A stretch of 64,000 bases of DNA from an uncultured Gammaproteobacteria bacterium. GTDB lineage: Bacteria; Patescibacteriota; Patescibacteriia; Magasanikbacterales; GWA2-37-8. The stretch lies in the NCBI GenBank assembly GCA_964482695.1, contig CAYZYP010000001.1:4143-68142 (forward strand), given 5' to 3'. Positions 841 to 64,000 of this stretch are shown here, piece by piece (the first letter of the stretch is position 1; every line of letters begins with the position of its first letter). The translations under genes and the position numbers were made by a program. Under the pieces are notes generated by a model. It saw nothing but the letters and a program-made list of their open reading frames with translations, had not been told where the DNA came from and did not search any database.

Positions 841-919
841 TATGCCTGGCGCCAGCGGAAAAGACTTTTTGAATCGGCGGGCTATCGCCTCGCCGCTCAA
901 AAAGTATTTTCCGCTGGCG
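841..919. repeat. Palindromic intergenic repeat, family P1 copy 1 (gcgccagcggaaaa...ttttccgctggcg with nested gcgggctatcgcc core)
   Basis: Near-identical copy at 42909-42982; internal inverted repeat gccagcggaaaa(g/t)actttt(t)ga / tcaaaaagtattttccgctggc seen directly. Confidence 0.7.
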
Positions 920-5948: not shown

Positions 5949-8465
5949 TTGATTTCATGTTTTATGGAAGACAAAATCATCATCAAAGGCGCCAGAGTGC
6001 ATAATTTAAAAAATATCTCTCTGGAAATACCAAAGAATAAAATAACGGTAATTACCGGCGTTTCTGGTAGTGGTAAATCCAGTCTAGCTTTTGATACTAT
6101 TTTTGCCGAAGGGCAGAGAAGATATATAGAATCATTATCTCCGTATGCCAGGCAATTTTTGGGTCAAATGGAAAGGGCTGATGTTGATGAAATAAATGGT
6201 TTATCACCAGCCATTGCCATAGACCAAAAAGCCCTTAGCCACAACCCACGTTCCACTGTTGGCACCCTAACCGAAATTTACGATTATTTACGTGTTTTGT
6301 ACGCCCGCTTAGGCGAGGTATATTGCCCGCAGTGTGATTTAAAAATAGAAAAATTAACAACCGACGAGATGTTGGATATAGTTATTGGCCAAGCCGAAGA
6401 ATTAGACGAAAAAATAGTCACCATATTTTCACCAGTCGTGCGCGAGCGCAAAGGGGAGTATTACCAATTGTTATATGATTTCTTAAATCTGGGATTTGAT
6501 CAAGCGCGCGTTGATGGGGCGTTAGTTTCTTTGCATGAAAGAATAAACTTAGCTCGTTACAAAAAACATAATATTGAAATAATGATTGATAGAGTAATGA
6601 TAAGTGATGTCAGCCGGTTAAACGAAGCCATAGAAAGTGCTTTACATCATAGCAAAGGATTGGTATTGGCAGTGTTTAAAGAAAAATCAAAAGAACCAAT
6701 AGAACGGTTATTATCCAGTAACTGGTCGTGCTCTAACGATGGTTTTTCTTTTCCCGAAATAGAGCCAAGACTTTTTTCTTTTAATAGTCCGGCTGGCGCT
6801 TGCCCGGATTGTCATGGTTTAGGGAAAGTAGAAATGTTTTCCAAAGAAATTTGTCCGGTTTGCCAAGGCAAGCGTTTAAAGCCAGAAGCCCTATCGGTAA
6901 AAATTAAGCATAAAAATATTTTTGAGGTTGCTTCCATGACCATAGAAGACATGTATACATTTTTTATTCAATACGAAATCAAAATGACTGAACGCCAAAA
7001 ATTAATAGCCCATCACGCCACTCGCGAAATTACCGACCGTTTAAAATTTTTACTGGAAGTTGGTTTGGACTATATTACCCTTTCTCGCGAATCTCATACT
7101 TTGTCTGGTGGTGAAGCCCAACGCATCAGATTATCTTCACAAATAGGTTCGCGTTTATCAAACACGTTATATGTTTTAGATGAACCTACCATTGGTTTAC
7201 ATGAACGCGACACCGATCGCTTGATAAAAACTTTAAAATCTTTACGCGATGCCAATAATACAGTTATCGTAGTTGAGCATGATGAACGGACGATTAAAGA
7301 ATCAGATTATTTGGTTGACCTTGGCCCCTTGGCCGGCGAACATGGGGGAGAGGTGGTGTACGTAGGGACAGGTCTAGACCTGTCCCTACAAGGCGATAAA
7401 TCTCGATCTCTTACCATCCAATACCTCACCAACCAACGCCAAGTAGAGGTGCCTAAAAAACGTCGCTGGAAAGAGACCGAAGAATTGTCTATTATCGGCG
7501 CGCGAATAAATAATCTTAAAAACATCAATGTTAAAATACCTTTACGCAAGTTTGTTTGTGTTTCTGGTGTTTCCGGCAGTGGTAAATCTTCGCTACTTTA
7601 TGATACTCTTTACGAAAATATTAATAGAATAAAAAGTAGATACAAAACATTGGAAGGTGCCAGTAAAATTACCGGTACTGAATATTTTGAAAAGGCAGTT
7701 ATTGTTGATCAGTCGCCAATTGGCCGCACCCCGCGTTCTAACCCAGCGACCTATACTGGCATTTTTACCCCTATTCGCGAATTTTTTGCTTCTTTAGAAG
7801 ATTCGCGTACGCGCGGCTATACTATTTCGCGCTTTTCTTTTAATGTCGCTGGCGGGCGTTGTGAAGCTTGCGAAGGCGCGGGAGCAAATTTAATAGAAAT
7901 GCATTTTTTGCCTCCCGTACTAGTGCCGTGCGAAGTTTGTCATGGCAAAAGATTTAGCCGTGAAACATTACAAGTTAAACATAAAAAGAAAAATATTGCC
8001 GATGTTTTAAAAATGACAGTTAGCGAAGCCGTTAAGTTTTTTGAACATATTTATTCTATCACTGACAAGTTAAAAGTTTTGCAAGAAGTTGGTTTGGGTT
8101 ATTTACAACTTGGCCAATCAGCCACTACTTTGTCTGGCGGCGAAGCTCAACGTATTAAGCTGGCGCGCGAATTAACTCAGCCATTAGGTCGTCGAACACT
8201 TTATTTACTCGACGAACCAACCGTTGGCTTGCACTACTTTGATATTGAAATGTTGCTGATGGTAATAAATAAATTAGTAGATAAAGGCAATTCCGTTATC
8301 ATGATAGAACACAATCTGCATATTTTAAAGTCTTGCGACTATATTATTGATCTAGGGCCCGAAGGCGGTGAAAAAGGCGGGCGAGTAGTGGCCAAGGGCA
8401 CGCCCGAAGAAGTAGGCGATAATCCTAATTCTTATACAGGGATGTATTTAAGAGAGATGTTGTAA
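5949..8465 (+). CDS. uvrA: Excinuclease ABC subunit A (UvrA), compact form (838 aa); true start probably MEDKIIIKG at ~5964
   Basis: Two ABC ATPase modules (GVSGSGKSSLAFDT..., GVSGSGKSSLLYDT...), zinc-finger cysteines, LSGGEAQRI signatures; insertion domain region replaced by short linker. Confidence 0.9.
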   Translation: MISCFMEDKIIIKGARVHNLKNISLEIPKNKITVITGVSGSGKSSLAFDTIFAEGQRRYIESLSPYARQFLGQMERADVDEINGLSPAIAIDQKALSHNPRSTVGTLTEIYDYLRVLYARLGEVYCPQCDLKIEKLTTDEMLDIVIGQAEELDEKIVTIFSPVVRERKGEYYQLLYDFLNLGFDQARVDGALVSLHERINLARYKKHNIEIMIDRVMISDVSRLNEAIESALHHSKGLVLAVFKEKSKEPIERLLSSNWSCSNDGFSFPEIEPRLFSFNSPAGACPDCHGLGKVEMFSKEICPVCQGKRLKPEALSVKIKHKNIFEVASMTIEDMYTFFIQYEIKMTERQKLIAHHATREITDRLKFLLEVGLDYITLSRESHTLSGGEAQRIRLSSQIGSRLSNTLYVLDEPTIGLHERDTDRLIKTLKSLRDANNTVIVVEHDERTIKESDYLVDLGPLAGEHGGEVVYVGTGLDLSLQGDKSRSLTIQYLTNQRQVEVPKKRRWKETEELSIIGARINNLKNINVKIPLRKFVCVSGVSGSGKSSLLYDTLYENINRIKSRYKTLEGASKITGTEYFEKAVIVDQSPIGRTPRSNPATYTGIFTPIREFFASLEDSRTRGYTISRFSFNVAGGRCEACEGAGANLIEMHFLPPVLVPCEVCHGKRFSRETLQVKHKKKNIADVLKMTVSEAVKFFEHIYSITDKLKVLQEVGLGYLQLGQSATTLSGGEAQRIKLARELTQPLGRRTLYLLDEPTVGLHYFDIEMLLMVINKLVDKGNSVIMIEHNLHILKSCDYIIDLGPEGGEKGGRVVAKGTPEEVGDNPNSYTGMYLREML
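7362..7389. repeat. 28-bp perfect palindrome gtagggacaggtctagacctgtccctac inside uvrA coding sequence, in a GC-rich patch
   Basis: Read directly; replaces the conserved EGTPEE segment at the end of UvrA ABC module I (translated VGTGLDLSLQ). Confidence 0.6.
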
Positions 8466-12670: not shown

Positions 12671-13381
12671 TTAGGGGTGTTTACACCGCAAAAGAATACT
12701 AAAATCTCTGCTCTGAGGATCGTGGAGAAAATTGGGCAAGACGGCCAGGATTACTATATGCGGATTATGTAAATATTTGCGCAAAATAAGATCAGGTTCG
12801 GCTAAAGTCGGCAGGTTTGGCAGTTCAGGTTTAGCTGGCAATGTAGGAGCAGCGCATCCGTTTACCATTTTAACACATTCCCAAACATACGATAAGGCAA
12901 GCTGTTTTTCTTGTTCCGGCCTAAAGCCGCTTACCACGGCCTGATTAAAGTAGTCGGAAAATCCGGGGATCCGCGAAACGCCGTGTAGTGGCTTGTGGCG
13001 CGAGTAGGCAAAGTCAACGCAAGCTTGCAGAAGTACGTGTCCGCTGCCGCGATCTACCGAGCAGATAGTAATGCCGAAGTGGCAGTTACCGTTTGGGTCG
13101 TGGACGTGGCGAGAGAATCCGTTATCTGTTAAGTCGTTAAAGGTGGCCAGTCGCGAGATTCCAGCGGCAGTTAGATGGGTAATAAAACAGTAAGTGAAGG
13201 CGGTTATTACGCCATTTTTTTCTGCCAACAAAAATCCCTCGGGGTAAACGTCTAACCATGTTTTGAAGTGTTCCTCCCTATACACTTCAGTACCGGCGTT
13301 TCCCCAAACTTTTTCTTCTACCGCGACGATTTGGGCGATGTCAGCCCAAGTTGCTTGGCGAATTTTTAGTTTTTCTGTCAT
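12671..13381 (-). CDS. GNAT-family N-acetyltransferase-like protein with unusual Pro-rich C-terminal extension; GC-rich gene
   Basis: N-terminal IRQATWADIAQIVAVEEKVW... resembles GNAT fold; local GC clearly above window average. Confidence 0.45.
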   Translation of the reverse strand: MTEKLKIRQATWADIAQIVAVEEKVWGNAGTEVYREEHFKTWLDVYPEGFLLAEKNGVITAFTYCFITHLTAAGISRLATFNDLTDNGFSRHVHDPNGNCHFGITICSVDRGSGHVLLQACVDFAYSRHKPLHGVSRIPGFSDYFNQAVVSGFRPEQEKQLALSYVWECVKMVNGCAAPTLPAKPELPNLPTLAEPDLILRKYLHNPHIVILAVLPNFLHDPQSRDFSILLRCKHP

Positions 13382-17313: not shown

Positions 17314-17319
17314 ATATAG

Positions 17320-17393
17320 TGGGCATGGATGGACTCGAACCATCGACATCCACCTTATAAGGGTGGCGCTCTAACCAACTGAGCTACATGCCC
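17320..17393 (-). tRNA. tRNA-Ile with anticodon UAU (reads AUA)
   Basis: Manual fold of reverse complement: acceptor GGGCATG/CATGCCC, D-stem GCTC/GAGC, anticodon stem CCACC/GGTGG with loop CTTATAA, T-arm GATGG-TTCGAGT-CCATC, discriminator A; no encoded CCA. Confidence 0.7.
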
Positions 17394-19590: not shown

Positions 19591-20859
19591 ATGTTAACCT
19601 TGGAATTTGATTACAATTTGCCAAAAGAATTAATTGCCCAAACACCAGCTAGCCCGCGTGATTCTTCGCGTTTGATGGTGGTTGATAGGAATAATCACGA
19701 TATTCAGCATAAACAGTTTAAGGATATTATTCAATATTTATCCAAAGGTGATCTGTTAGTTTGGAATAACACCAAAGTTTTTAAGGCGCGATTACAAGGT
19801 CGGGTTTTATTGGACGAGGAGACGGACAATATTTCTGACAGGCGAGAAAAAAAACTGGGTTTAACGGACAGGATTTTAAACATGCCGGCAATGGAGATTT
19901 TTTTGGTTCGGCCGATGGAAAATTTTGGCGTTTGGAAAGTGTTGGCTAAACCTGGTAGAAAATTACGCTTGGGGATGAAAATAGTTTTTGCCGAGGATTT
20001 TATTTGCGAAGTGATGATTAAAGAAAGCGACGGGACCATTTTGGTTCAATTCAGCGAAGACGACATGAGCGTACGGGCCAAGGCGAATAAGTATGGAAGT
20101 GTGCCTGTGCCGCCATACATTGAATTTGATAGTCGCTCTGTCATCCCGAGGAGGAGGAACGACGACGAGGGATCTCTGTCTGGACAATTGAGACAGAGAT
20201 CCCTCACTTCGTTCGGGATGACAAAAGAGTTGGCAGAACAATATCAAACCGTCTATGCTAAACACGAGGGTTCGGTGGCGGCACCTACCGCTGGCTTTCA
20301 TTTTACACCAGAATTGATAGAACAGTTAAAACAAAAAGGCGTTGAATTCGCCGAAGTAACTTTGCATGTTGGTTTGGGAACTTTTTTACCGGTTAAGACT
20401 GAAAAAGTGGAGGATCATAAAATGCATAGTGAGTGGATAGAATTAACAGCCGCTAACGCGGATAAAATAAATACAGCCAAAGCAGAAGGCAGGCGGGTTA
20501 TAGCAGTTGGTACTACAACAGTGAGGACATTGGAGGGCGTGAATTTATTTTGTCATCCCCGCGAAAGCGGGGATCCAGCCCAAAAGTTACAGACACTGGA
20601 TTCCCGCCTGCGCGGGGATGACAGTCGCGTTTATTACTTAAAACCATATACCGGCGACATTAACATTTTTATTACTCCCGGCTTCAAATTCCAGATTATA
20701 GACGCGCTAGTAACTAATTTTCACTTGCCAAAATCAACTTTAATTATGCTGGTTAGCGCGTTTGTTGGCGACACCAATTTTGTCTCGGATTGTTATCAAA
20801 AAGCGGTAGAAGCTAAATATCGCTTTTATAGTTTTGGAGATGCGATGTTGATTAAATAA
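19591..20859 (+). CDS. queA: S-adenosylmethionine:tRNA ribosyltransferase-isomerase (QueA) carrying two in-frame palindromic insertions
   Basis: MLTLEFDYNLPKELIAQTPASPRDSSRLMVV...; 422 aa vs ~340 typical. Confidence 0.85.
   Translation: MLTLEFDYNLPKELIAQTPASPRDSSRLMVVDRNNHDIQHKQFKDIIQYLSKGDLLVWNNTKVFKARLQGRVLLDEETDNISDRREKKLGLTDRILNMPAMEIFLVRPMENFGVWKVLAKPGRKLRLGMKIVFAEDFICEVMIKESDGTILVQFSEDDMSVRAKANKYGSVPVPPYIEFDSRSVIPRRRNDDEGSLSGQLRQRSLTSFGMTKELAEQYQTVYAKHEGSVAAPTAGFHFTPELIEQLKQKGVEFAEVTLHVGLGTFLPVKTEKVEDHKMHSEWIELTAANADKINTAKAEGRRVIAVGTTTVRTLEGVNLFCHPRESGDPAQKLQTLDSRLRGDDSRVYYLKPYTGDINIFITPGFKFQIIDALVTNFHLPKSTLIMLVSAFVGDTNFVSDCYQKAVEAKYRFYSFGDAMLIK
20139..20223. repeat. In-frame palindromic element 1 inside queA (outer tgtcatcccga/tcgggatgaca, inner gagggatctctgtct/agacagagatccctc)
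   Basis: Nested inverted repeats read directly; GC-rich vs flanking; translated as SVIPRRRNDDEGSLSGQLRQRSLTSFGMT. Confidence 0.7.
20551..20623. repeat. In-frame palindromic element 2 inside queA (perfect 13-bp termini tgtcatccccgcg / cgcggggatgaca)
   Basis: Termini are exact reverse complements; same terminal motif as element 1; translated LFCHPRESGDPAQKLQTLDSRLRGDD. Confidence 0.7.
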
Positions 20860-42908: not shown

Positions 42909-42982
42909 TACGCCTTGCGCCAGCGGAAAATACTTTTGAATCGCGGGCTATCGCCCGCGCTCAAAAAGTATTTTCCGCTGGC
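42909..42982. repeat. Palindromic intergenic repeat, family P1 copy 2
   Basis: Matches 841-919 over ~70 bp with nested inverted repeats. Confidence 0.7.
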
Positions 42983-43018
42983 GTGGCGCGTGAATAATAT
43001 TAGTTTGTTAATAAAGTT

Positions 43019-44002: not shown

Positions 44003-45508
44003 ATGAAAATTTCTATCTCGTACCCACCACTAGAATCAGAAAAGGGAGTACCACTACTTTCTCAAAATCGTCAATTTCAATGGTTTAACAGTCCAACTTA
44101 TATTTATCCCATGATTCCGGCTAGCGCCGCCTCGCTTCTTAAACAAAATGGTTATGAGGTTTTTTGGGATGATGGAATTGCGGAAGGGTTAACTTATGAT
44201 GAATGGTTAAAAAGAATTATTAAAGAACAGCCAGATGTGGTAGTAATTGAAACAAAAACGCCAGTTGTTAAAAGGCATTGGCAGATTATTGATGAATTGA
44301 AGCAGAAAAGTTTAGAGATTAAAGACTGGAAATTAAAGGTTGTTTTAATGGGGGATCATGCTACGGCTATACCCGAAGAATCAATGAAAAATTGCCAGTC
44401 AGATTTTGTGATTCAAGGCGGTGATTATGATTTTATTTTGTTAAATATAGTAAACTATTTAAGCGGTAAAGAAGATTTGCGTGGTGGGGTTTGGTTTCGC
44501 GAGACCCCCCCATCTCCCCCCCTTATCAAGGGGGGGATAAAGGAGGGGTATAGATGTAAAGGTCCTTATGATCTACATAACCATTCTTTAGACGAGCTGC
44601 CAATGATTGATCGCGAGCTAACCAAATGGCAGTTATACGCTTTTAAAAATGGTAATTTTAAATATACGCCCGGTTCGTATATGATGAGCGCCAGAGATTG
44701 TTGGTGGGGAAAATGTTCATTTTGCTCTTGGACAACTCTTTTTCCAGGAGGCAATTGGCGTACGCGCTCGGCTAAAAAAGCCCTAGACGAAGTTGGGCTT
44801 TTGATTGGTCTAGGCGTTAAAGAAATTATGGAAGATAGTGGTAGTTTGCCTATTGGCGAGTGGCTAAAGGAATTTTGCCAAGGTATGATTGAAAGGGGAT
44901 ATAACAAAAAAGTGGTGATGAGTTGCAACATGCGGATAAACGGAATTAAGGATATTGAAATATGGAAATTAATGAAAAAAGCCGGATTTAGATTTGTTTT
45001 GTTTGGGTTGGAATCAGCAAACCAAAAAACTTTGGATAGGATAAATAAAAATTTAAAAGTAGAAGAGATTGAACCAGGACTTAAAATGTGCAAAGAGGCT
45101 GGTTTAGAGCCTCACATAACAGCTATGATTGGCTACCCATGGGAAAGCAAACAAGATGCCAAAAGAACCGTAGATTTGGCCAGAGATTTATTTAAAAAAG
45201 GTTATGTTGATACCCTGCAGGCAACTATTGTTATACCATACCCCGGTACGCCTTTGTATAAAGAATGTTTAGAAAATGGTTGGTTAAATTTTACTGATTA
45301 CGACCGTTTTGATCAACGCGAACAGGTGATGAAGTCGGAATTAACCACCGCGGATGTCAAAGAACTAACACAGGGGTTGTACAAATCTTTTATTACCCCC
45401 AAGTTTATTTTGCGAAAAATAATTGGCATTAAAAGCTGGAATGATGTAAAATTCTTATGGCGAGCCGGGTGGAAGGTCTTGGGACATTTGGGGGATTTTG
45501 GGAAATAA
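44003..45508 (+). CDS. B12-binding domain / radical SAM domain protein (putative sugar-modifying class B radical SAM enzyme)
   Basis: N-terminal cobalamin-binding-like Rossmann segment; Cys cluster CWWGKCSFC (Cx4Cx2C); C-terminal TIM-barrel-like region. Confidence 0.5.
   Translation: MKISISYPPLESEKGVPLLSQNRQFQWFNSPTYIYPMIPASAASLLKQNGYEVFWDDGIAEGLTYDEWLKRIIKEQPDVVVIETKTPVVKRHWQIIDELKQKSLEIKDWKLKVVLMGDHATAIPEESMKNCQSDFVIQGGDYDFILLNIVNYLSGKEDLRGGVWFRETPPSPPLIKGGIKEGYRCKGPYDLHNHSLDELPMIDRELTKWQLYAFKNGNFKYTPGSYMMSARDCWWGKCSFCSWTTLFPGGNWRTRSAKKALDEVGLLIGLGVKEIMEDSGSLPIGEWLKEFCQGMIERGYNKKVVMSCNMRINGIKDIEIWKLMKKAGFRFVLFGLESANQKTLDRINKNLKVEEIEPGLKMCKEAGLEPHITAMIGYPWESKQDAKRTVDLARDLFKKGYVDTLQATIVIPYPGTPLYKECLENGWLNFTDYDRFDQREQVMKSELTTADVKELTQGLYKSFITPKFILRKIIGIKSWNDVKFLWRAGWKVLGHLGDFGK
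44503..44549. repeat. In-frame GC-rich palindromic insert with C7/C7/G7 homopolymer runs inside the radical SAM gene
   Basis: gagaccccccc atct ccccccc ttatcaa ggggggg ataaaggagggg read directly; translated RETPPSPPLIKGGIKEG. Confidence 0.6.
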
Positions 45509-46206: not shown

Positions 46207-46967
46207 AAAGATATTATCCAGACAGCGTAAATATTCCGTCAAAAAATTTATTGGTGGAATATTTGCAATATGAAATTCTTGATTCATTGTATAAACAAAA
46301 AGAAAGCGCGTATTTGAGCTTTATTGGTGGAACCGCGATTCGTATCGTGTATGGAGGTAATCGTTTTTCCGAAGATTTGGATTTTGATAATTTTGGTTTA
46401 TCTTTTGCTGATTTTCAACATTTGATGGATAAAATTGTGGAAGACATGAAAATCAAGGGTTTTTTAATGGACGCGCGCTTAGTGCAAAAAGGCGCGTATC
46501 ATTGTTATATTCGTTTTCCACATATTCTGCAAGCCGCTAATTTGAGCGATATAAAAGGGGAAAAAATATTGGTAAGGGTAGATGCTACGTGGAAAGAAAA
46601 AATATTAGAGCCTGTTTTTTATACGCTAAATAGGTTTGATATTTATCGCAATATACTTGTAAATCCGGAAAATATAATTCTTTCTCAAAAAATGATGGCG
46701 ATACTTGGTCGTAAAAGAGAAAAAGGGCGAGATTTTTTTGATGTCAGCTATTTGTACGGGATGACAAAACCAGACTTTTCATATATTGAAAAGATTATGG
46801 GTATTTCTAGAGAGGAATTTGTTGCTAACTTGCTCGCGAAATGCGACGCGTTGGATTTTAAATCTCTCGCGAAAGATGTTGAACCATTTTTAATGAACCC
46901 AGAACAAATTAGCAGGGTATTGGGTTTTAGAGAATTTATTTACGAAATGAGTAAGAGAGGTATTTAA
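46185..46967 (+). CDS. abiEii: AbiEii/AbiGii-family nucleotidyltransferase toxin
   Basis: LSFIGGTAIRIVYGGNRFSEDLDFD matches AbiEii NTase motif; 22-nt overlap with abiEi. Confidence 0.7.
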   Translation: MLTFGQLKRYYPDSVNIPSKNLLVEYLQYEILDSLYKQKESAYLSFIGGTAIRIVYGGNRFSEDLDFDNFGLSFADFQHLMDKIVEDMKIKGFLMDARLVQKGAYHCYIRFPHILQAANLSDIKGEKILVRVDATWKEKILEPVFYTLNRFDIYRNILVNPENIILSQKMMAILGRKREKGRDFFDVSYLYGMTKPDFSYIEKIMGISREEFVANLLAKCDALDFKSLAKDVEPFLMNPEQISRVLGFREFIYEMSKRGI

Positions 46968-62675: not shown

Positions 62676-63656
62676 ATGAATTTTGTAATTTTTTTAGGCA
62701 AATTAAAAATTTTTCTATTTAAGCGCGGTTTGGTATTAATTGAAAGTTTAAAAATAATCTTTGCCAAAATGCTGGCCGACGCTCGGAAACAGCCAATAAC
62801 AACTTTGGCCGTGTTTGTTGTTTTTAGCGCGCTGTTTTTTATATTTGATAACAAATTAGCCGCTTTACTTATAGCTTCTATAATTCCGATTATTGTTTTT
62901 CGTTGGGATCCGCGGATTTATTTTGGTTTTGCCTTATTATTTTTGTTTGTTACGCCATTTTTTTTAATTTTTCAGCAAGAATATTTGGCAGAACAAATGG
63001 CTATTTACACCTATTATTTGCTTTGCGCCGGAGTAGTTTGCCAAATTATTGAATACGCGCGCGATAATCGAGATGGAGGTGGAGCGACAAAAGAATTTAA
63101 ACAATGGGCTAAAATTAATATTAGTAGTTTAGTTTTAATAATTATTGTTATATTATTTTCCGTTGGTTTTTATTATATAAATAACAAATTTACCAAACAG
63201 CTGGCCGCACAAAACAAACTTTTAATGCAAATGGGAGGTTACAAAGTAGAAGAAGCCGACAAAGAATTGGGGAAATTAAAAAAACAAATAAAAGATTTGG
63301 TTGATTTATATAGCGGCGTCTCTGTTTCTTCTATTAATAATTTAACCAGCAGTTCGGCTAGCGGCGCTGTTTTAAAAACAAAGCCTATTACAGTAGAAAT
63401 ATTAAATGGTACTCTGTCAAAAGGGATGGCTACTGATTTAGGGGATCTTTTAAAAAATAAAGGATTTACAATAATAAGTGTCGGCAACGCTAACGGCAAT
63501 TATACTACCACTACTATTTTTTATAATTCCACCGGCAAGAATTACGCCGAAGCAGTAGAAAAAGAAGTGAGTAATTTTTATTTTACCCAAACACAAGAAT
63601 CTTCTGCTAAATTAAACAGTGATGTTTTGGTGATAATTGGCACTAAAAAGAAATGA
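62676..63656 (+). CDS. Membrane protein with C-terminal LytR_C (LytR/CpsA/Psr C-terminal) domain; start taken at MNFVIFLGK
   Basis: ITVEILNGTLSKGMATDLGDLLKNKGFTIISVGNANGNYTTTTIFY...VLVIIGTK. Confidence 0.55.
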   Translation: MNFVIFLGKLKIFLFKRGLVLIESLKIIFAKMLADARKQPITTLAVFVVFSALFFIFDNKLAALLIASIIPIIVFRWDPRIYFGFALLFLFVTPFFLIFQQEYLAEQMAIYTYYLLCAGVVCQIIEYARDNRDGGGATKEFKQWAKINISSLVLIIIVILFSVGFYYINNKFTKQLAAQNKLLMQMGGYKVEEADKELGKLKKQIKDLVDLYSGVSVSSINNLTSSSASGAVLKTKPITVEILNGTLSKGMATDLGDLLKNKGFTIISVGNANGNYTTTTIFYNSTGKNYAEAVEKEVSNFYFTQTQESSAKLNSDVLVIIGTKKK

Positions 63657-64000
63657 GAAAAAAAATAATTAAATTTCTTCCCATAGCCTATTTTATCGTA
63701 TTGGCTTTAGCGATTTTAGGGCCGCTACTCAAGCCTGGCTATGTTTTTTTATTAGATTTTGTTTTAGCGCCAACCTCTTATTTTAATTTCAGTAATTATT
63801 TAAACGGCCAAAGTTTGCTTGCTTCTCTACCGTATAATCTTGTTGTTTATTTATTATCTTTGTTGATACCAGCGTGGATTATTCAAAAAATAATCTTCTT
63901 TTTTATTTTTTTCTTCAGTGGTTTCGCCATGTGGCGGTCTTTGCCAGAAAAATTGGGAGTAGGCCCACGTTTAATAGCAAGCACTTTTTTTGTTGTTAAT
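63654..64000 (+). CDS. Partial (5' end only) polytopic membrane protein, runs off window
   Basis: ATG overlapping previous stop; MRKKIIKFLPIAYFIVLALAILGPLL... hydrophobic. Confidence 0.35.

What the first reader, a model, noticed from the sequence alone, without database searches (positions are those of the whole stretch)
20139..20623. Two related palindromic elements inserted in frame into queA (RPE-like selfish elements in a housekeeping gene)
queA translates to 422 aa where QueA is normally ~340 aa. The excess maps to two GC-rich nested-palindrome segments, 20139-20223 and 20551-20623. Both terminate with the same motif, tgtcatccc(c)g...c(g)gggatgaca. The reading frame is preserved through both, so they are translated as extra surface loops. 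This is the behaviour described for Rickettsia palindromic elements. I know of no description of it in Patescibacteria-type genomes. It implies an active or recently active repeat family that tolerates, or selects for, protein-internal insertion.
Basis: partly seen in the sequence, partly recalled or inferred. Interest (0 to 1): 0.8.

Follow-up and report, generated by a model that had tools for sequence, protein, structure and literature searches.

The report
Mobile palindromes translated inside queA
Two short hairpin-forming mobile DNA elements sit in frame inside the housekeeping gene queA of a Magasanikbacteria (Patescibacteria) genome; they belong to a cosmopolitan repeat superfamily whose arms, in related genomes, flank a small SsnA-type single-strand DNA nuclease gene.

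Summary
queA (19591-20859, 422 aa) carries two GC-rich palindromes, 20139-20223 and 20551-20623. Both have TGTCAT...ATGACA ends, both are in frame and stop-free, and both are missing from the closest orthologues.

They are not a private family. The two arms of element 2 match the published Ssn-related motif (the NTS/dRS3 hairpin of Neisseria). A near-identical composite sits in frame in ileS of Sphingopyxis. Element 1 belongs to a subfamily abundant in Magasanikbacteria MAGs, with 116 or more loci in a capped scan. About 25% of those copies lie in frame inside genes such as RecG, KsgA, LeuRS, DnaE, ComEC and UvrD. The rest are intergenic.

A third copy lies in the same genome 250 nt past the window end, again in frame. 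In five related loci the same arms bracket a ~96-aa GIY-YIG gene that is 43-48% identical to gonococcal SsnA. The short elements therefore look like gene-less, MITE/REPIN-like derivatives.

QueA loops B and C are recurrent insertion sites across 120 orthologues. Mobilisation by the nuclease and translation of the inserts are inferred, not shown.

The elements are depleted in coding DNA, so they are tolerated there, not favoured. This is a new member of a known kind, of moderate to high interest.

The parts
19591..20859 (+). queA (tRNA preQ1(34) S-adenosylmethionine ribosyltransferase-isomerase), 422 aa, intact host gene
   Evidence: ORF. Pfam PF02547, E 1.5e-122, profile covered 3-322 of 322. 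PDB QueA 1vky, E 6.5e-92. The AF2 model matches 1vky/1yy3/1wdi by Foldseek, E 1e-24 to 1e-29. yceG-queA-...-rplK-nusG synteny is kept in orthologues.
20139..20223 (.). Element 1, 'type 1' subfamily: 85-nt palindromic element TGTCAT...ATGACA, translated as aa 184-211 (VIPRRRNDDEGSLSGQLRQRSLTSFGMT), QueA site B
   Evidence: Sequence. Hairpin -51.2 kcal/mol, z -6.7. Absent from the closest orthologues. 87% identical to a paralogous copy in the same genome. Family census. pLDDT below 50 over residues 184-207.
20139..20149 (+). Element 1 outer inverted repeat, left arm TGTCATCCCGA; pairs with 20213-20223
   Evidence: Read. Paired in the MFE structures. T at -1 of GTCAT is invariant in 109/109 family members.
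20213..20223 (+). Element 1 outer inverted repeat, right arm TCGGGATGACA
   Evidence: A at +1 of ATGAC in 108/109 family members.
20167..20180 (+). Element 1 inner stem, left half GAGGGATCTCTGTC (family-defining core)
   Evidence: The core pattern GGATCTCTGTC-N8-20-GACAGAGAT was found in 116 or more stretches of genome contigs.
20192..20205 (+). Element 1 inner stem, right half GACAGAGATCCCTC
20551..20623 (.). Element 2, 'type 2': 73-nt composite of two inverted Ssn-related motifs, translated as aa 321-344 (CHPRESGDPAQKLQTLDSRLRGDD), QueA site C
   Evidence: I5: 28-nt arms, 89% complementary. Hairpin -50.1 kcal/mol, z -9.2. Sub-threshold Rfam match to WsnRNA46 with the same architecture. Full-length relatives in Azospirillum, Sphingopyxis and Cupriavidus. 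pLDDT 51-63 over 321-350.
20551..20578 (+). Left arm of element 2: TGTCATCCCCGCGAAAGCGGGGATCCAG, an Ssn-related motif (NTS-like hairpin)
   Evidence: Matches the published SRM pattern; 0.04 matches expected per shuffled window. Three mismatches to the NTS consensus, two of them a compensatory pair in the stem. Folds as an 8-bp hairpin in ssDNA, -9.8 kcal/mol, z -5.5. The 27 nt from GTCAT are identical to the copy in Sphingopyxis ileS.
20579..20595 (.). 17-nt spacer (loop) between the two arms of element 2
20596..20623 (-). Right arm of element 2 (read on the - strand: TGTCATCCCCGCGCAGGCGGGAATCCAG), an Ssn-related motif
   Evidence: SRM pattern match. Two mismatches to the NTS consensus. Hairpin -6.2 kcal/mol.
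19801..19890 (+). QueA site A (aa 71-100): extra segment present across the clade, accounting for about 23 of the ~75 extra residues; not a TGTCAT element
   Evidence: Gap in the alignment to 1vky. All 120 homologues have a segment here, 20-67 aa between fixed anchors, most 22-28. A few relatives carry further inserts here.
63653..64000 (+). Start of a 588-aa membrane-protein gene that runs off the window. 250 nt beyond the end (window-equivalent 64248-64329) it carries a third, in-frame type-1 element (CHSEEEHSDDEESLSKLRQRSFAPLRMT)
   Evidence: L129 gene 12318-14084, element at 12913-12994, on the same JGI contig as queA. 87% identical to element 1.

Best explanation
The two segments are copies of two subfamilies of one superfamily of short, non-coding, palindromic mobile elements with TGTCAT...ATGACA termini.

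What each element is.
- Element 2 is a head-to-head pair of Ssn-related motifs. These are the NTS/dRS3-type hairpin that SsnA-family GIY-YIG nucleases bind and cut as single-stranded DNA.
- Element 1 belongs to a subfamily that is abundant in Magasanikbacteria. Its arms share the GTCAT...ATC frame but have no hairpin of their own. It has a strong inner stem, GGATCTCTGTC/GACAGAGATCC.

The likely partner. In related genomes the same arms bracket a ~96-aa SsnA homologue. In one case the gene sits in the loop of a type-1 element. The 70-90-nt elements are therefore best read as gene-less derivatives, comparable to MITEs or REPINs, that depend on such a nuclease supplied in trans.

How they came to be in queA. 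Each element entered queA after the lineage split from its closest sampled relatives, at two loops (B and C). These loops are hit again and again in this clade. Most insertions into genes are lost. These two survive because the net insertion is a multiple of three, the frame read has no stop, and the 28 and 24 hydrophilic residues lie in permissive loops. QueA is still made, with two extra loops.

Shown:
- the anatomy of both elements;
- absence from the closest orthologues;
- family membership of the arms;
- a dispersed family with both intergenic and in-frame copies;
- the nuclease gene flanked by the same arms in relatives;
- depletion of the elements in coding DNA.

Inferred:
- that the nuclease mobilises the elements (about 0.5);
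- that the inserts are translated and not removed (about 0.85);
- that insertion was recent and independent, not ancestral (about 0.7).
For: Anatomy and in-frame state.
-. Element 1 is stop-free in 4 of 6 frames and element 2 in 3 of 6.

Insertions relative to QueA.
- Gaps against solved QueA at residues 179-214 and 318-350.
- The baseline length in the clade is 361-367 aa. The closest orthologue P0004 (72% identity, 371 aa) is empty at B and C.

Independent insertion events.
- Type-1 at site B occurs in three separate NJ clades: the window sequence, P0010+P0038, and P0018.
- Site C carries the element in different frames: TGT CAT in the window and P0116, GTC ATC in P0019.
- P0010 carries the type-1 element at B and also, inverted, at C.
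- Element 1 is 87% identical to the third copy of its own genome, against 74-76% to the elements at the orthologous queA site.

Identity of element 2.
- The published SRM pattern hits exactly its two arms, with 0.04 matches expected by chance. Each arm has 2-3 mismatches to the NTS consensus.
- The same composite lies in frame in Sphingopyxis ileS.
- Rfam WsnRNA46 shows the same termini and architecture, below threshold.

Family census.
- 116 or more stretches, nearly all from Patescibacteria/Magasanikbacteria MAGs, at 5 to 25 loci per genome.
- 110 of 127 matches have both termini.
- 27 of 109 lie in long ORFs, in RecG, KsgA x2, LeuRS x2, DnaE, ComEC and UvrD.
- This is a depletion against 91% open DNA, p 4e-61.
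- Length classes differ between ORF and intergenic copies, Fisher p 9e-5.

The partner gene.
- Five ~96-100-aa GIY-YIG ORFs have PF01541 E values of 1e-14 to 1e-17. Each is flanked by GTCAT...ATGAC arms.
- The arms of two gene-carrying units (L114 left, L096 right) match about 100-135 sites in 64-74 loci at 4 or fewer edits, the L082 right arm 16, the L085 type-3 arms 33-36; the L082 and L068 left arms match only their own locus.
- The proteins are 43-48% identical to the gonococcal SsnA orthologue. Y6, Y17 and E64, the residues mutated by Chenal et al., are invariant.

Literature.
- PMC11893778 covers SsnA, NTS, SRM and the NTS-ssnA-NTS arrangement.
Against: - No SsnA-like gene lies in the 64-kb window or in the ~9 kb of extension that could be reached. 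The only GIY-YIG domain there is that of UvrC. The source genome may therefore have no active partner.
- The arms of element 1 do not fit the published SRM pattern and do not fold alone.
- No target-site duplication was seen. No single rule for the inserted unit explains all in-ORF length classes.
- The 3' junction at site B is identical in four orthologues. This would also fit one old insertion followed by many losses.
- No closely related filled/empty pair was available, so no insertion event was caught in the act.
- No expression or peptide data exist.
- SsnA is documented as a nuclease that restricts transforming DNA, not as a transposase (PMC11893778).
Confidence: 0.75

Rival explanations
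1. Old passengers. The two segments descend from ancient insertions into the QueA loops of an ancestor of Magasanikbacteria. They were inherited vertically and lost precisely in most lineages, since palindromes delete easily. The family is no longer mobile in this genome.
For: - Homologous type-1 elements sit at site B with the same 3' junction (GMT-x-EL) and the same frame in the window, P0010, P0038 and P0018.
- No nuclease gene lies in the window.
- Only two copies occur in 64 kb.
- The NJ tree rests on 307 columns and is not strongly resolved.
Against: - The closest relatives (P0002, P0004, P0003, P0006) lack the site-B element.
- Site-C copies are read in different frames and belong to different subfamilies in different clades.
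- Element 1 is closer to a paralogous copy in its own genome (87%) than to the 'orthologous' copies (74-76%).
- The stems are nearly perfect.
- One genome carries the same subfamily at B and, inverted, at C.
Confidence: 0.15
2. Host-serving sites. The hairpins are kept because they act as DNA or RNA signals. They could be SsnA target sites that limit integration of incoming single-stranded DNA around or inside genes, as NTS does in Neisseria. They could also be mRNA structures that tune queA expression. On this view translation is a side effect.
For: [quoted passage not shown]
- Patescibacteria keep ComEC, and ComEC itself carries such elements in a relative.
- The arms of element 2 are conserved down to 27/27 nt with a proteobacterial copy, despite a 35% GC host.
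- The stems are strong.
Against: - Presence at a given locus is patchy among close relatives. This is the signature of a selfish element, not of a conserved regulatory site.
- Copies are depleted from genes.
- Different subfamilies and quite different repeat families fill the same loops. This argues for permissive sites, not for a specific signal.
Confidence: 0.12
3. Adaptive protein loops. The inserted peptides were selected because they give QueA a new surface, for example for partner binding. The DNA palindromy is secondary.
For: - The inserts are hydrophilic and probably lie on the surface.
- Claverie and Ogata proposed such a role for RPE peptides (own knowledge; also the review PMC10969869).
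Against: - The peptide sequence is not conserved among orthologues. The same DNA is read in different frames (CHP... versus VIP...).
- The same elements occur intergenically in the majority of cases.
- Model confidence is low and no defined fold is predicted.
Confidence: 0.04
4. Artefact or other intervening sequence. The segments are an assembly chimera, an intein, or an intron-like RNA that is spliced out.
For: The composition is foreign, 54-60% GC in a 35% GC genome.
Against: - The identical 422-aa product is on record from three contigs in NCBI, JGI and ENA assemblies.
- Homologous elements occur in dozens of independent MAGs and in a cultured Sphingopyxis.
- At 24-28 aa the segments are far too short for an intein, and Pfam finds only the QueA family.
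- No intron or other Rfam family reaches threshold.
- ORF copies keep frame and are stop-free, and their length classes differ from intergenic copies. Splicing would not require this.
Confidence: 0.02

Closest known systems
Ssn-related motifs (SRM), including the Neisseria Transformation Sequence NTS/dRS3, and their GIY-YIG nuclease SsnA (Chenal et al., Nat Commun 2025, PMC11893778)
   Same: - Both arms of element 2 match the published SRM pattern and differ from the NTS consensus at 2-3 of 28 positions.
- They have the GTCAT 5' flank, the hairpin and the ATCYRG 3' flank, and they fold as ssDNA.
- In relatives the arms flank a 43-48% identical SsnA homologue with Y6/Y17/E64 conserved. This is the NTS-ssnA-NTS arrangement.
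   Different: - Here two motifs are fused head-to-head into one 73-nt unit that sits in frame inside a gene.
- The paper describes single hairpin repeats around genes in Proteobacteria. It mentions neither Patescibacteria, coding insertions nor RPEs.
- The arms of element 1 fall outside the SRM pattern.
- No ssnA lies in this window.
- The documented role of SsnA is restriction of transforming ssDNA. Mobilisation is only a hypothesis.
Rickettsia palindromic elements (RPE; Ogata et al. 2000; summarised in PMC10969869)
   Same: - Short palindromic repeats inserted in frame in unrelated housekeeping genes and translated as extra loops, with other copies intergenic. In R. conorii nearly half of 44 copies lie in ORFs. 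Here the figure is about a quarter.
- Both hosts are small-genome, host-dependent bacteria.
- Chenal et al. list Rickettsia among genomes with more than 300 SRMs.
   Different: - RPEs are ~100-150 bp, whereas these are 73-85 nt.
- The host phylum is different.
- Sequence similarity to RPE consensus sequences could not be tested, because no Rickettsia DNA was reachable.
- No partner enzyme has been reported for RPEs in what I could search. Here a candidate exists.
REPINs and their RAYT transposase (Bertels and Rainey 2011, PMC3116915; own knowledge)
   Same: - A REPIN is two short hairpin repeats in inverted orientation, separated by a spacer and forming one long hairpin.
- REPINs are non-autonomous and tied to a small single-copy nuclease gene that is itself flanked by the repeats.
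- Element 2, and the arm-gene-arm units in relatives, have exactly this logic.
   Different: - The partner is a GIY-YIG ssDNA nuclease, not an HUH (IS200/IS605-type) RAYT.
- REPINs are extragenic, whereas these also survive inside genes.
Wolbachia sRNA 46 (Rfam RF02625, WsnRNA46) / Wolbachia palindromic repeats
   Same: The consensus uGuCauccgaG...GGgauCcaG - loop - CugGauuCC...cggauGaCa has the same termini, the same ATCCAG/CTGGAT inner junction and the same long-hairpin architecture as element 2.
   Different: The score of 28.2 bits is far below the gathering score of 65.3. The arm interiors and the loop differ. There is no evidence here for a stable small RNA.
Classical bacterial MITEs (Correia/NEMIS, ERIC, RUP and others; review PMC10969869)
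   Same: Terminal inverted repeats, small size, many copies, occasional in-frame fusion with host ORFs, and derivation from a gene-carrying parent by internal deletion.
   Different: No target-site duplication was seen. The parent carries a ~96-aa GIY-YIG nuclease, not a DDE transposase.

Membership tests
Ssn-related motif (SRM) / NTS repeats | Sequence matches the published degenerate SRM pattern HGTCWYN(0-2)YYVSBRHN(0-5)WNVSBRGN(0-2)RNCYNB | tested here: met
   Element 2: both arms match (20551-20578 +, 20596-20623 -), against 0.04 matches per shuffled window. Element 1: its arms do not match.
Ssn-related motif (SRM) / NTS repeats | NTS sensu stricto: CGTCATTCCCGCGMAVGCGGGAATCYRG with at most one mismatch | tested here: not met
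   Three mismatches in the left arm and two in the right. T7C is shared by both; A22G, in the left arm only, keeps the stem pair. The arms are therefore SRMs, not canonical NTS.
Ssn-related motif (SRM) / NTS repeats | Each repeat forms a hairpin as single-stranded DNA, with an oriented GTCAT 5' flank | tested here: met
   Element 2 arms: -9.8 kcal/mol (z -5.5) and -6.2 kcal/mol. Element 1 arms: z about 0, so not met for that element.
Ssn-related motif (SRM) / NTS repeats | Spatial association with an ssnA (single-domain GIY-YIG, cd10448) gene | tested here: inconclusive
In related Patescibacteria, five SsnA homologues (43-48% identity, catalytic Y/Y/E conserved) are flanked by type-1, type-3 or related arms. 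The CDD cd10448 assignment itself is not testable here.
Ssn-related motif (SRM) / NTS repeats | Binding and cleavage by the cognate Ssn nuclease as ssDNA | not testable with these tools
   This needs biochemistry.
Rickettsia palindromic elements (RPE) | Palindromic repeat inserted in frame in protein-coding genes and compatible with the fold of the host protein | tested here: met
   In frame in queA at two gaps between conserved blocks. Low-pLDDT excursions on an otherwise QueA-like model. Family members lie in frame in RecG, KsgA, LeuRS, DnaE, ComEC and UvrD.
Rickettsia palindromic elements (RPE) | Sequence similarity to one of the RPE consensus families | not tested
   No Rickettsia sequence was reachable: the pRF accession is not in the collection and the supplement was not held. 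The only lead is that Chenal et al. list Rickettsia among SRM-rich genomes.
Rickettsia palindromic elements (RPE) | Size of about 100-150 bp and occurrence in Rickettsia | tested here: not met
   73 and 85 nt. The host is a Magasanikbacterium. The elements therefore work like RPEs but are not filed as RPEs.
MITE (non-autonomous derivative of a gene-carrying element) | Terminal inverted repeats shared with a longer element that encodes the enzyme | tested here: met
   Arm-gene-arm units occur in L068, L082, L085, L096 and L114. In L082 the gene lies in the loop of a type-1 element. The arms of two units match about 100-135 sites in 64-74 loci. This was shown in relatives, not in the window genome.
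MITE (non-autonomous derivative of a gene-carrying element) | Target-site duplication | tested here: inconclusive
   No direct repeat flanks the copies. The invariant T(-1) and A(+1) and the Y/R at positions +/-2 may be element or target. No filled/empty pair was available.
Rfam RF02625 WsnRNA46 | Covariance-model score at or above the gathering threshold (65.3 bits) | tested here: not met
   28.2 bits, E about 1e-3 to 7e-3.
Intein / self-splicing intron | Intein splicing domains, or group I/II intron RNA structure | tested here: not met
   Pfam finds only Queuosine_synth. The inserts are 24-28 aa. No intron family appears in the Rfam E-value scan.

The most novel reading that the evidence does not exclude
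TGTCAT...ATGACA palindromes may be the non-autonomous form of a minimal (~0.4 kb) mobile element whose only gene is an SsnA-type single-strand DNA nuclease. On this reading the system spans phyla, from Patescibacteria to Alpha- and Betaproteobacteria. It would be the general cause of RPE-like translated palindromes in housekeeping proteins. If so, the enzyme behind Rickettsia RPEs, not identified in what I could search or recall, would be an Ssn, and 'NTS-ssnA-NTS' would be a transposon and not only a transformation-control module.
Probability: 0.4. Interest if true: 0.85.

Novelty: new member of a known kind. Interest (0 to 1): 0.62.

Why it matters
- In-frame 'selfish' palindromes are textbook only for Rickettsia. 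Here the same behaviour is common in an unrelated, uncultured phylum with tiny, ~91% coding genomes. It affects core enzymes: QueA, LeuRS, DnaE, RecG, KsgA and UvrD.
- The work ties that behaviour to a repeat class with a biochemically characterised partner, the SsnA ssDNA nucleases. It also shows gene-carrying and gene-less forms side by side. Whether these nucleases mobilise the repeats therefore becomes directly testable.
- There is a practical side. Such inserts inflate protein lengths and create spurious repeat peptides such as CHSE..EESLSQ..QDD, VIPAKAGIQ and DSRFRGNDK. They can break assemblies and mislead annotation and homology searches in CPR metagenomes.

Tried and rejected
- my first gapped pattern allowed only 20-50 nt between the termini and found nothing. 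The real gaps are 55 and 67 nt. A regex scan replaced it.
- the fifth GGGATGACA, at 46758, is a lone 9-mer inside a gene and not an element.
- no SsnA-like ORF lies in the window or the first loci. Only the GIY-YIG domain of UvrC is present.
- NCBIfam has no model for the small GIY-YIG proteins.
- the PDB gives only UPF0213 GIY-YIG structures (1ywl, 1zg2), and no SsnA.
- Rickettsia felis plasmid NC_007110 is not in the plasmid collection.
- no supplement is held for PMC11893778.
- no RPE consensus sequence was readable. The RPE sequence comparison was abandoned.
- the type-1 core has no match in viral contigs.
- a search of the protein database with the element peptides failed. The first query was too short. 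The concatenated query then shared no three words with any entry, and one capped search was wasted.
- the last window ORF is not on record under my start codon. The neighbouring gene worked.
- a metagenome-contig scan for the subfamily-specific left arm found nothing, not even the source contig. That collection evidently lacks the source sample, so copies in the source genome could not be counted.
- Rejected readings: intein, intron, assembly artefact and adaptive loop (see the rival explanations).
- The idea that elements are specially 'coding-adapted' is not supported. They have 1.76 stop-free frames per element, against 1.53 in shuffles.
Full report
THE OBSERVATION

The ORF 19591-20859 (+) encodes a 422-aa protein. 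It is QueA: Pfam PF02547, E 1.5e-122, with the whole profile covered. Its nearest solved relatives are QueA of T. maritima, B. subtilis and T. thermophilus, 345-347 aa. The alignment to 1vky falls into three blocks, with gaps at residues 71-100 (site A), 179-214 (site B) and 318-350 (site C).

Sites B and C contain the two reported segments.
- Element 1 is 20139-20223: 85 nt, 54% GC.
- Element 2 is 20551-20623: 73 nt, 60% GC.
- The window as a whole is 34.7% GC.
- Both begin TGTCATCCC and end GGGATGACA.
- Both fold as long hairpins far better than shuffles. As RNA: -51.2 and -50.1 kcal/mol, z -6.7 and -9.2. As DNA: z -7.2 and -7.5.
- Both are read through in frame, as VIPRRRNDDEGSLSGQLRQRSLTSFGMT (aa 184-211) and CHPRESGDPAQKLQTLDSRLRGDD (aa 321-344).

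1. About 23 extra residues lie at site A. All 120 closest homologues have a segment there (20-67 aa, most 22-28), and it is not such an element.
2. Only the arms of element 2 are hairpins in their own right.
3. The window holds no further full copy.

The identical protein is on record from three contigs of NCBI, JGI and ENA assemblies. An assembly artefact is therefore unlikely.

LINEAGE-SPECIFIC INSERTIONS AT HOT SPOTS

The 120 closest QueA homologues (58-73% identity) are from Candidatus Magasanikbacteria and other Patescibacteria. They range from 361 to 482 aa, with a baseline of 361-367 aa. The length variation maps to sites A, B and C, and to a fourth site D near residue 394.

The closest relatives lack the site-B element. 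P0004 (72% identity, 371 aa) is empty at both B and C.

Homologous type-1 elements occupy site B in P0010, P0038 and P0018. In an NJ tree on 307 core columns these, together with the window sequence, lie in three separate clades.

Site C carries TGTCAT-type elements in more than ten scattered clades. They belong to different subfamilies and are read in different frames: TGT CAT in the window and P0116, GTC ATC in P0019.

P0010 has the same subfamily at B and, in inverted orientation, at C. Its right arm at C is almost the exact reverse complement of its left arm at B (one G/A difference, plus a degraded terminus). Other, unrelated repeat peptides fill the same loops in further orthologues.

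An AlphaFold model built with 50 homologues has a confident core. Foldseek places it on QueA structures, with E values from 1e-24 to 1e-29. Confidence is below 50 over residues 184-207 and between 51 and 63 over residues 321-350. Both inserts therefore behave as loop excursions.

WHAT THE ELEMENTS ARE

A literature search for the arm sequence led to Chenal et al. 2025 (PMC11893778). That paper reports the following.
- It defines the Neisseria Transformation Sequence (NTS) as CGTCATTCCCGCGMAVGCGGGAATCYRG. This sequence contains dRS3.
- It defines a degenerate 'Ssn-related motif' (SRM).
- It shows that the small GIY-YIG nuclease SsnA binds and cuts these hairpins as single-stranded DNA.
- It notes an NTS-ssnA-NTS arrangement.
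- It lists Rickettsia and Wolbachia among SRM-rich genomes.

The published SRM pattern hits the window at exactly the two arms of element 2, plus one probable chance site. Only 0.04 hits are expected in shuffles. The arms differ from the NTS consensus at 3 and 2 of 28 positions. One change (T7C) is shared; in the left arm a second change (A22G) restores the stem pair. Element 2 is therefore a head-to-head pair of SRMs with a 17-nt spacer.

Rfam gives a sub-threshold match to WsnRNA46 of Wolbachia (28 bits against a gathering score of 65). Its consensus has the same TGTCATCC...GGATCCAG / CTGGAT...GGATGACA architecture.

BLAST against plasmid records finds full-length relatives in Azospirillum, Sphingopyxis and Cupriavidus. 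In Sphingopyxis indica pMC4 the copy lies in frame inside ileS, as RHPRESGDPERASANPTLDSRFRGNDK. Its left arm is identical to that of the window over the 27 nt from GTCAT.

Element 1 is a different subfamily, which I call type 1. It has the same TGTCAT/ATGACA ends and a GTCAT...ATC frame. Its arms fit neither the SRM pattern nor a hairpin. It also has a strong inner stem, GAGGGATCTCTGTC / GACAGAGATCCCTC.

FAMILY CENSUS

I scanned one genome per GTDB species for the type-1 core, GGATCTCTGTC-N8-20-GACAGAGAT. The results were as follows.
- Nearly all stretches come from Patescibacteria or Magasanikbacteria MAGs.
- The MAGs labelled 'uncultured Gammaproteobacteria' are in fact close relatives of the window organism. 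For example, UvrA is 75% identical over 869 aa.
- Single MAGs contribute 5 to 25 loci each.
- Of 127 matches, 110 have both termini.
- In 109 complete copies, position -1 is always T and position +1 is A in 108.
- 27 of the 109 lie inside long ORFs, with at least 40 aa on both sides. The other 82 do not.
- Yet 91% of this DNA is in open stretches of at least 100 aa. That is a strong depletion, binomial p 4e-61.
- The hosts of in-frame copies include RecG, KsgA/RsmA (two genomes), LeuRS (two genomes), DnaE, ComEC (two to three copies) and UvrD.
- Intergenic copies have modal lengths of 76 and 82 nt (GTCAT to ATGAC; 44 of 82 are 1 mod 3). ORF copies avoid that class (3 of 27; Fisher p 9e-5). A frame filter would produce this pattern.

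Relatives also carry type-1 copies in the rplK-nusG spacer.

In the window's own genome a third copy lies 250 nt past the window end. It is at L129 12913-12994, on the same JGI contig as queA. It is in frame in a 588-aa membrane protein. It is 87% identical to element 1, whereas the elements at the orthologous queA site of P0010 and P0038 are only 74-76% identical. This favours genome-resident subfamilies that insert anew over one inherited insertion.

THE LIKELY PARTNER

Five of the fetched loci encode ~96-100-aa single-domain GIY-YIG proteins, with PF01541 E values of 1e-14 to 1e-17. Each is bracketed by inverted arms ending in GTCAT and ATGAC.
- In L082 the gene sits in the loop of a type-1 element, and its stop codon is the TGA of the terminal ATGAC.
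- In L085 the arms are SRM hairpins of the kind found at QueA site D.
- The arms of the L114 and L096 units match about 100-135 sites in 64-74 loci at 4 or fewer edits.

tblastn places these proteins on a single locus of the N. gonorrhoeae chromosome, at 48% identity and E 5e-17. That locus encodes the SsnA orthologue. It has Y6, Y17 and E64, the residues mutated by Chenal et al., and ten NTS copies lie within 3.2 kb of it. In a joint alignment the Patescibacterial proteins are 43-45% identical to it, and those residues are invariant.

The short elements thus relate to arm-ssn-arm units as MITEs relate to insertion sequences, or REPINs to RAYTs.

No such gene lies in the window or in the ~9 kb of extension that could be reached.

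MECHANISM, AND WHAT IS SHOWN VERSUS INFERRED

Shown:
- the anatomy of both elements;
- their absence from the nearest orthologues;
- membership of the arms in the SRM/TGTCAT superfamily;
- dispersal within and between genomes, in both orientations and several frames;
- depletion in coding DNA;
- co-occurrence with an SsnA homologue flanked by the same arms in relatives.

Inferred:
1. An Ssn-type nuclease, acting on single-stranded hairpin DNA, mobilises the gene-less elements. SsnA is so far documented only as a site-specific ssDNase that restricts transforming DNA. I put this step at about 0.5.
2. Most genic insertions are purged. Survivors are those that add a multiple of three nucleotides, are read in one of the stop-free frames (two per strand in element 1; two on + and one on - in element 2), and land in permissive loops. 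The third frame on each strand ends in the TGA of ATGACA.
3. The inserts are translated. The frame and length filter argues for this (about 0.85).

Why the same loops, and nearly the same nucleotides, are hit repeatedly remains open. It could be target preference, structural permissiveness, or spread of filled alleles by recombination. No target duplication was seen. The two in-ORF length classes are not explained by a single rule for the inserted unit.

COMPARISON WITH KNOWN SYSTEMS AND NOVELTY

The behaviour is that of Rickettsia palindromic elements (review PMC10969869). Membership in the RPE families could not be tested, and size and host differ. I therefore file the elements as working like RPEs, not as RPEs.

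Element 2 is a member of the SRM class, though not canonical NTS. Element 1 is a new subfamily outside the published pattern. The logic is closest to REPIN/RAYT, with a GIY-YIG enzyme in place of an HUH enzyme.

Searches of the held literature found no account of such elements in Patescibacteria, and none linking RPE-type coding insertions to Ssn. One paper does note GIY-YIG genes among those exchanged between Patescibacteria and other bacteria (PMC12455944).

I rate the finding as a new member of a known kind, with interest 0.62. The more ambitious reading is given 0.4. It holds that this is a minimal, cross-phylum mobile element driven by Ssn, and that it is the general cause of translated palindromes, including RPEs.

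CAVEATS

- The census is capped, and it rests on an exact 20-nt core.
- The 'in ORF' calls rest on open frames, with Pfam confirmation for 8 of the 10 host proteins tested.
- The QueA tree is a quick NJ tree.
- The source genome beyond the window could be reached for only ~9 kb.
- One capped protein search was wasted and one metagenome scan was uninformative.

Noticed in passing
L129 12913-12994 (window-equivalent 64248-64329; host gene starts at window 63653): A third type-1 element of the same genome lies just past the window end. It is in frame in a 588-aa multi-pass membrane protein with no Pfam hit (CHSEEEHSDDEESLSKLRQRSFAPLRMT). It is 87% identical to element 1.
   Followed up: yes
window 7353-7390 (in ORF 5949-8465, UvrA): A perfect 14+14 palindrome, GTAGGGACAGGTCTAGACCTGTCCCTAC, lies in frame in UvrA (peptide VGTGLDLSLQ), in a GC-rich patch. 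It may be another short in-frame palindromic insert of a different family.
   Followed up: partly
window 44500-44550 (in ORF 44003-45508, radical SAM protein): A C-run/G-run palindrome, CCCCCCCATCTCCCCCCCTTATCAAGGGGGGGATAAAGGAGGGG, lies in frame (ETPPSPPLIKGGIKEGY). Similar peptides of the 'SPLEGGKGDV / PPSRGDL' kind fill QueA sites B and C in other Magasanikbacteria. It looks like a second repeat family that also lands in protein loops.
   Followed up: partly
window 850-919 and 42918-42983: Two copies of a ~75-nt intergenic palindromic element, GCGCCAGCGGAAAAGACTTTTTGA...TCAAAAAGTATTTTCCGCTGGCG. They are 85% identical including ~20 nt of upstream flank. These are the strongest hairpins in the window (-51 and -58 kcal/mol per 90 nt). 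Each lies just after a gene end.
   Followed up: partly
window 19801-19890 (QueA aa 71-100): An extra segment (LDE..D.I....TD(R/K)ILN, most 22-28 aa) is present across the clade relative to solved QueA structures. In some relatives it is itself expanded by further repeat-like inserts, to as much as 67 aa.
   Followed up: partly
L003 5491-5549 and L005 1979-2037 (QueA site D, about aa 394): A third subfamily occupies a fourth QueA loop in two orthologues: AGTCATCCTGAATTTATTTCAGGATyTAAGCGAAAGATTCCGAAACAAGTTyGGAATGACA, peptide SHPEFISGSKRKIPKQVWNDS. The same arms flank the SsnA homologue in L085.
   Followed up: yes
L124 2509-2586 (Sphingopyxis indica plasmid pMC4, ileS): An element-2-like composite lies in frame in isoleucyl-tRNA synthetase of a cultured alphaproteobacterium. 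PGAP annotates the CDS as intact. In-frame SRM pairs are therefore not confined to Rickettsia or Patescibacteria.
   Followed up: yes
window 17319-17393: tRNA-Ile with anticodon UAU, as called by ARAGORN. This is an unusual way for a bacterium to read AUA.
   Followed up: no
L021 and L051 (LeuRS of related MAGs): Leucyl-tRNA synthetases of 918 or more and 1252 aa carry NUDIX and serine-hydrolase domains inside the enzyme, in addition to several in-frame palindromic elements.
   Followed up: no
L008-L123 record titles; NZ_CP119140.1: Two database labels are wrong. Many TPA MAGs titled 'uncultured Gammaproteobacteria bacterium' are close relatives of this Magasanikbacterium (up to 75% protein identity to window genes). 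Separately, PLSDB holds whole N. gonorrhoeae chromosomes as 'plasmids'.
   Followed up: partly
window about 1915-2163; L127/L128 ends: Contigs from two other assemblies of this organism end near window position ~2040, where inverted repeats lie. Repeats may be breaking assemblies here.
   Followed up: no
L002 152-505; L007 3291-3641; L005 2188-2674; L003 7292-10735: The queA neighbourhood of relatives collects other small selfish or accessory genes. These include a 23S-rRNA-IVP four-helix-bundle gene, a DUF559 endonuclease and a HicAB pair next to queA, and an intein in GyrB.
   Followed up: no
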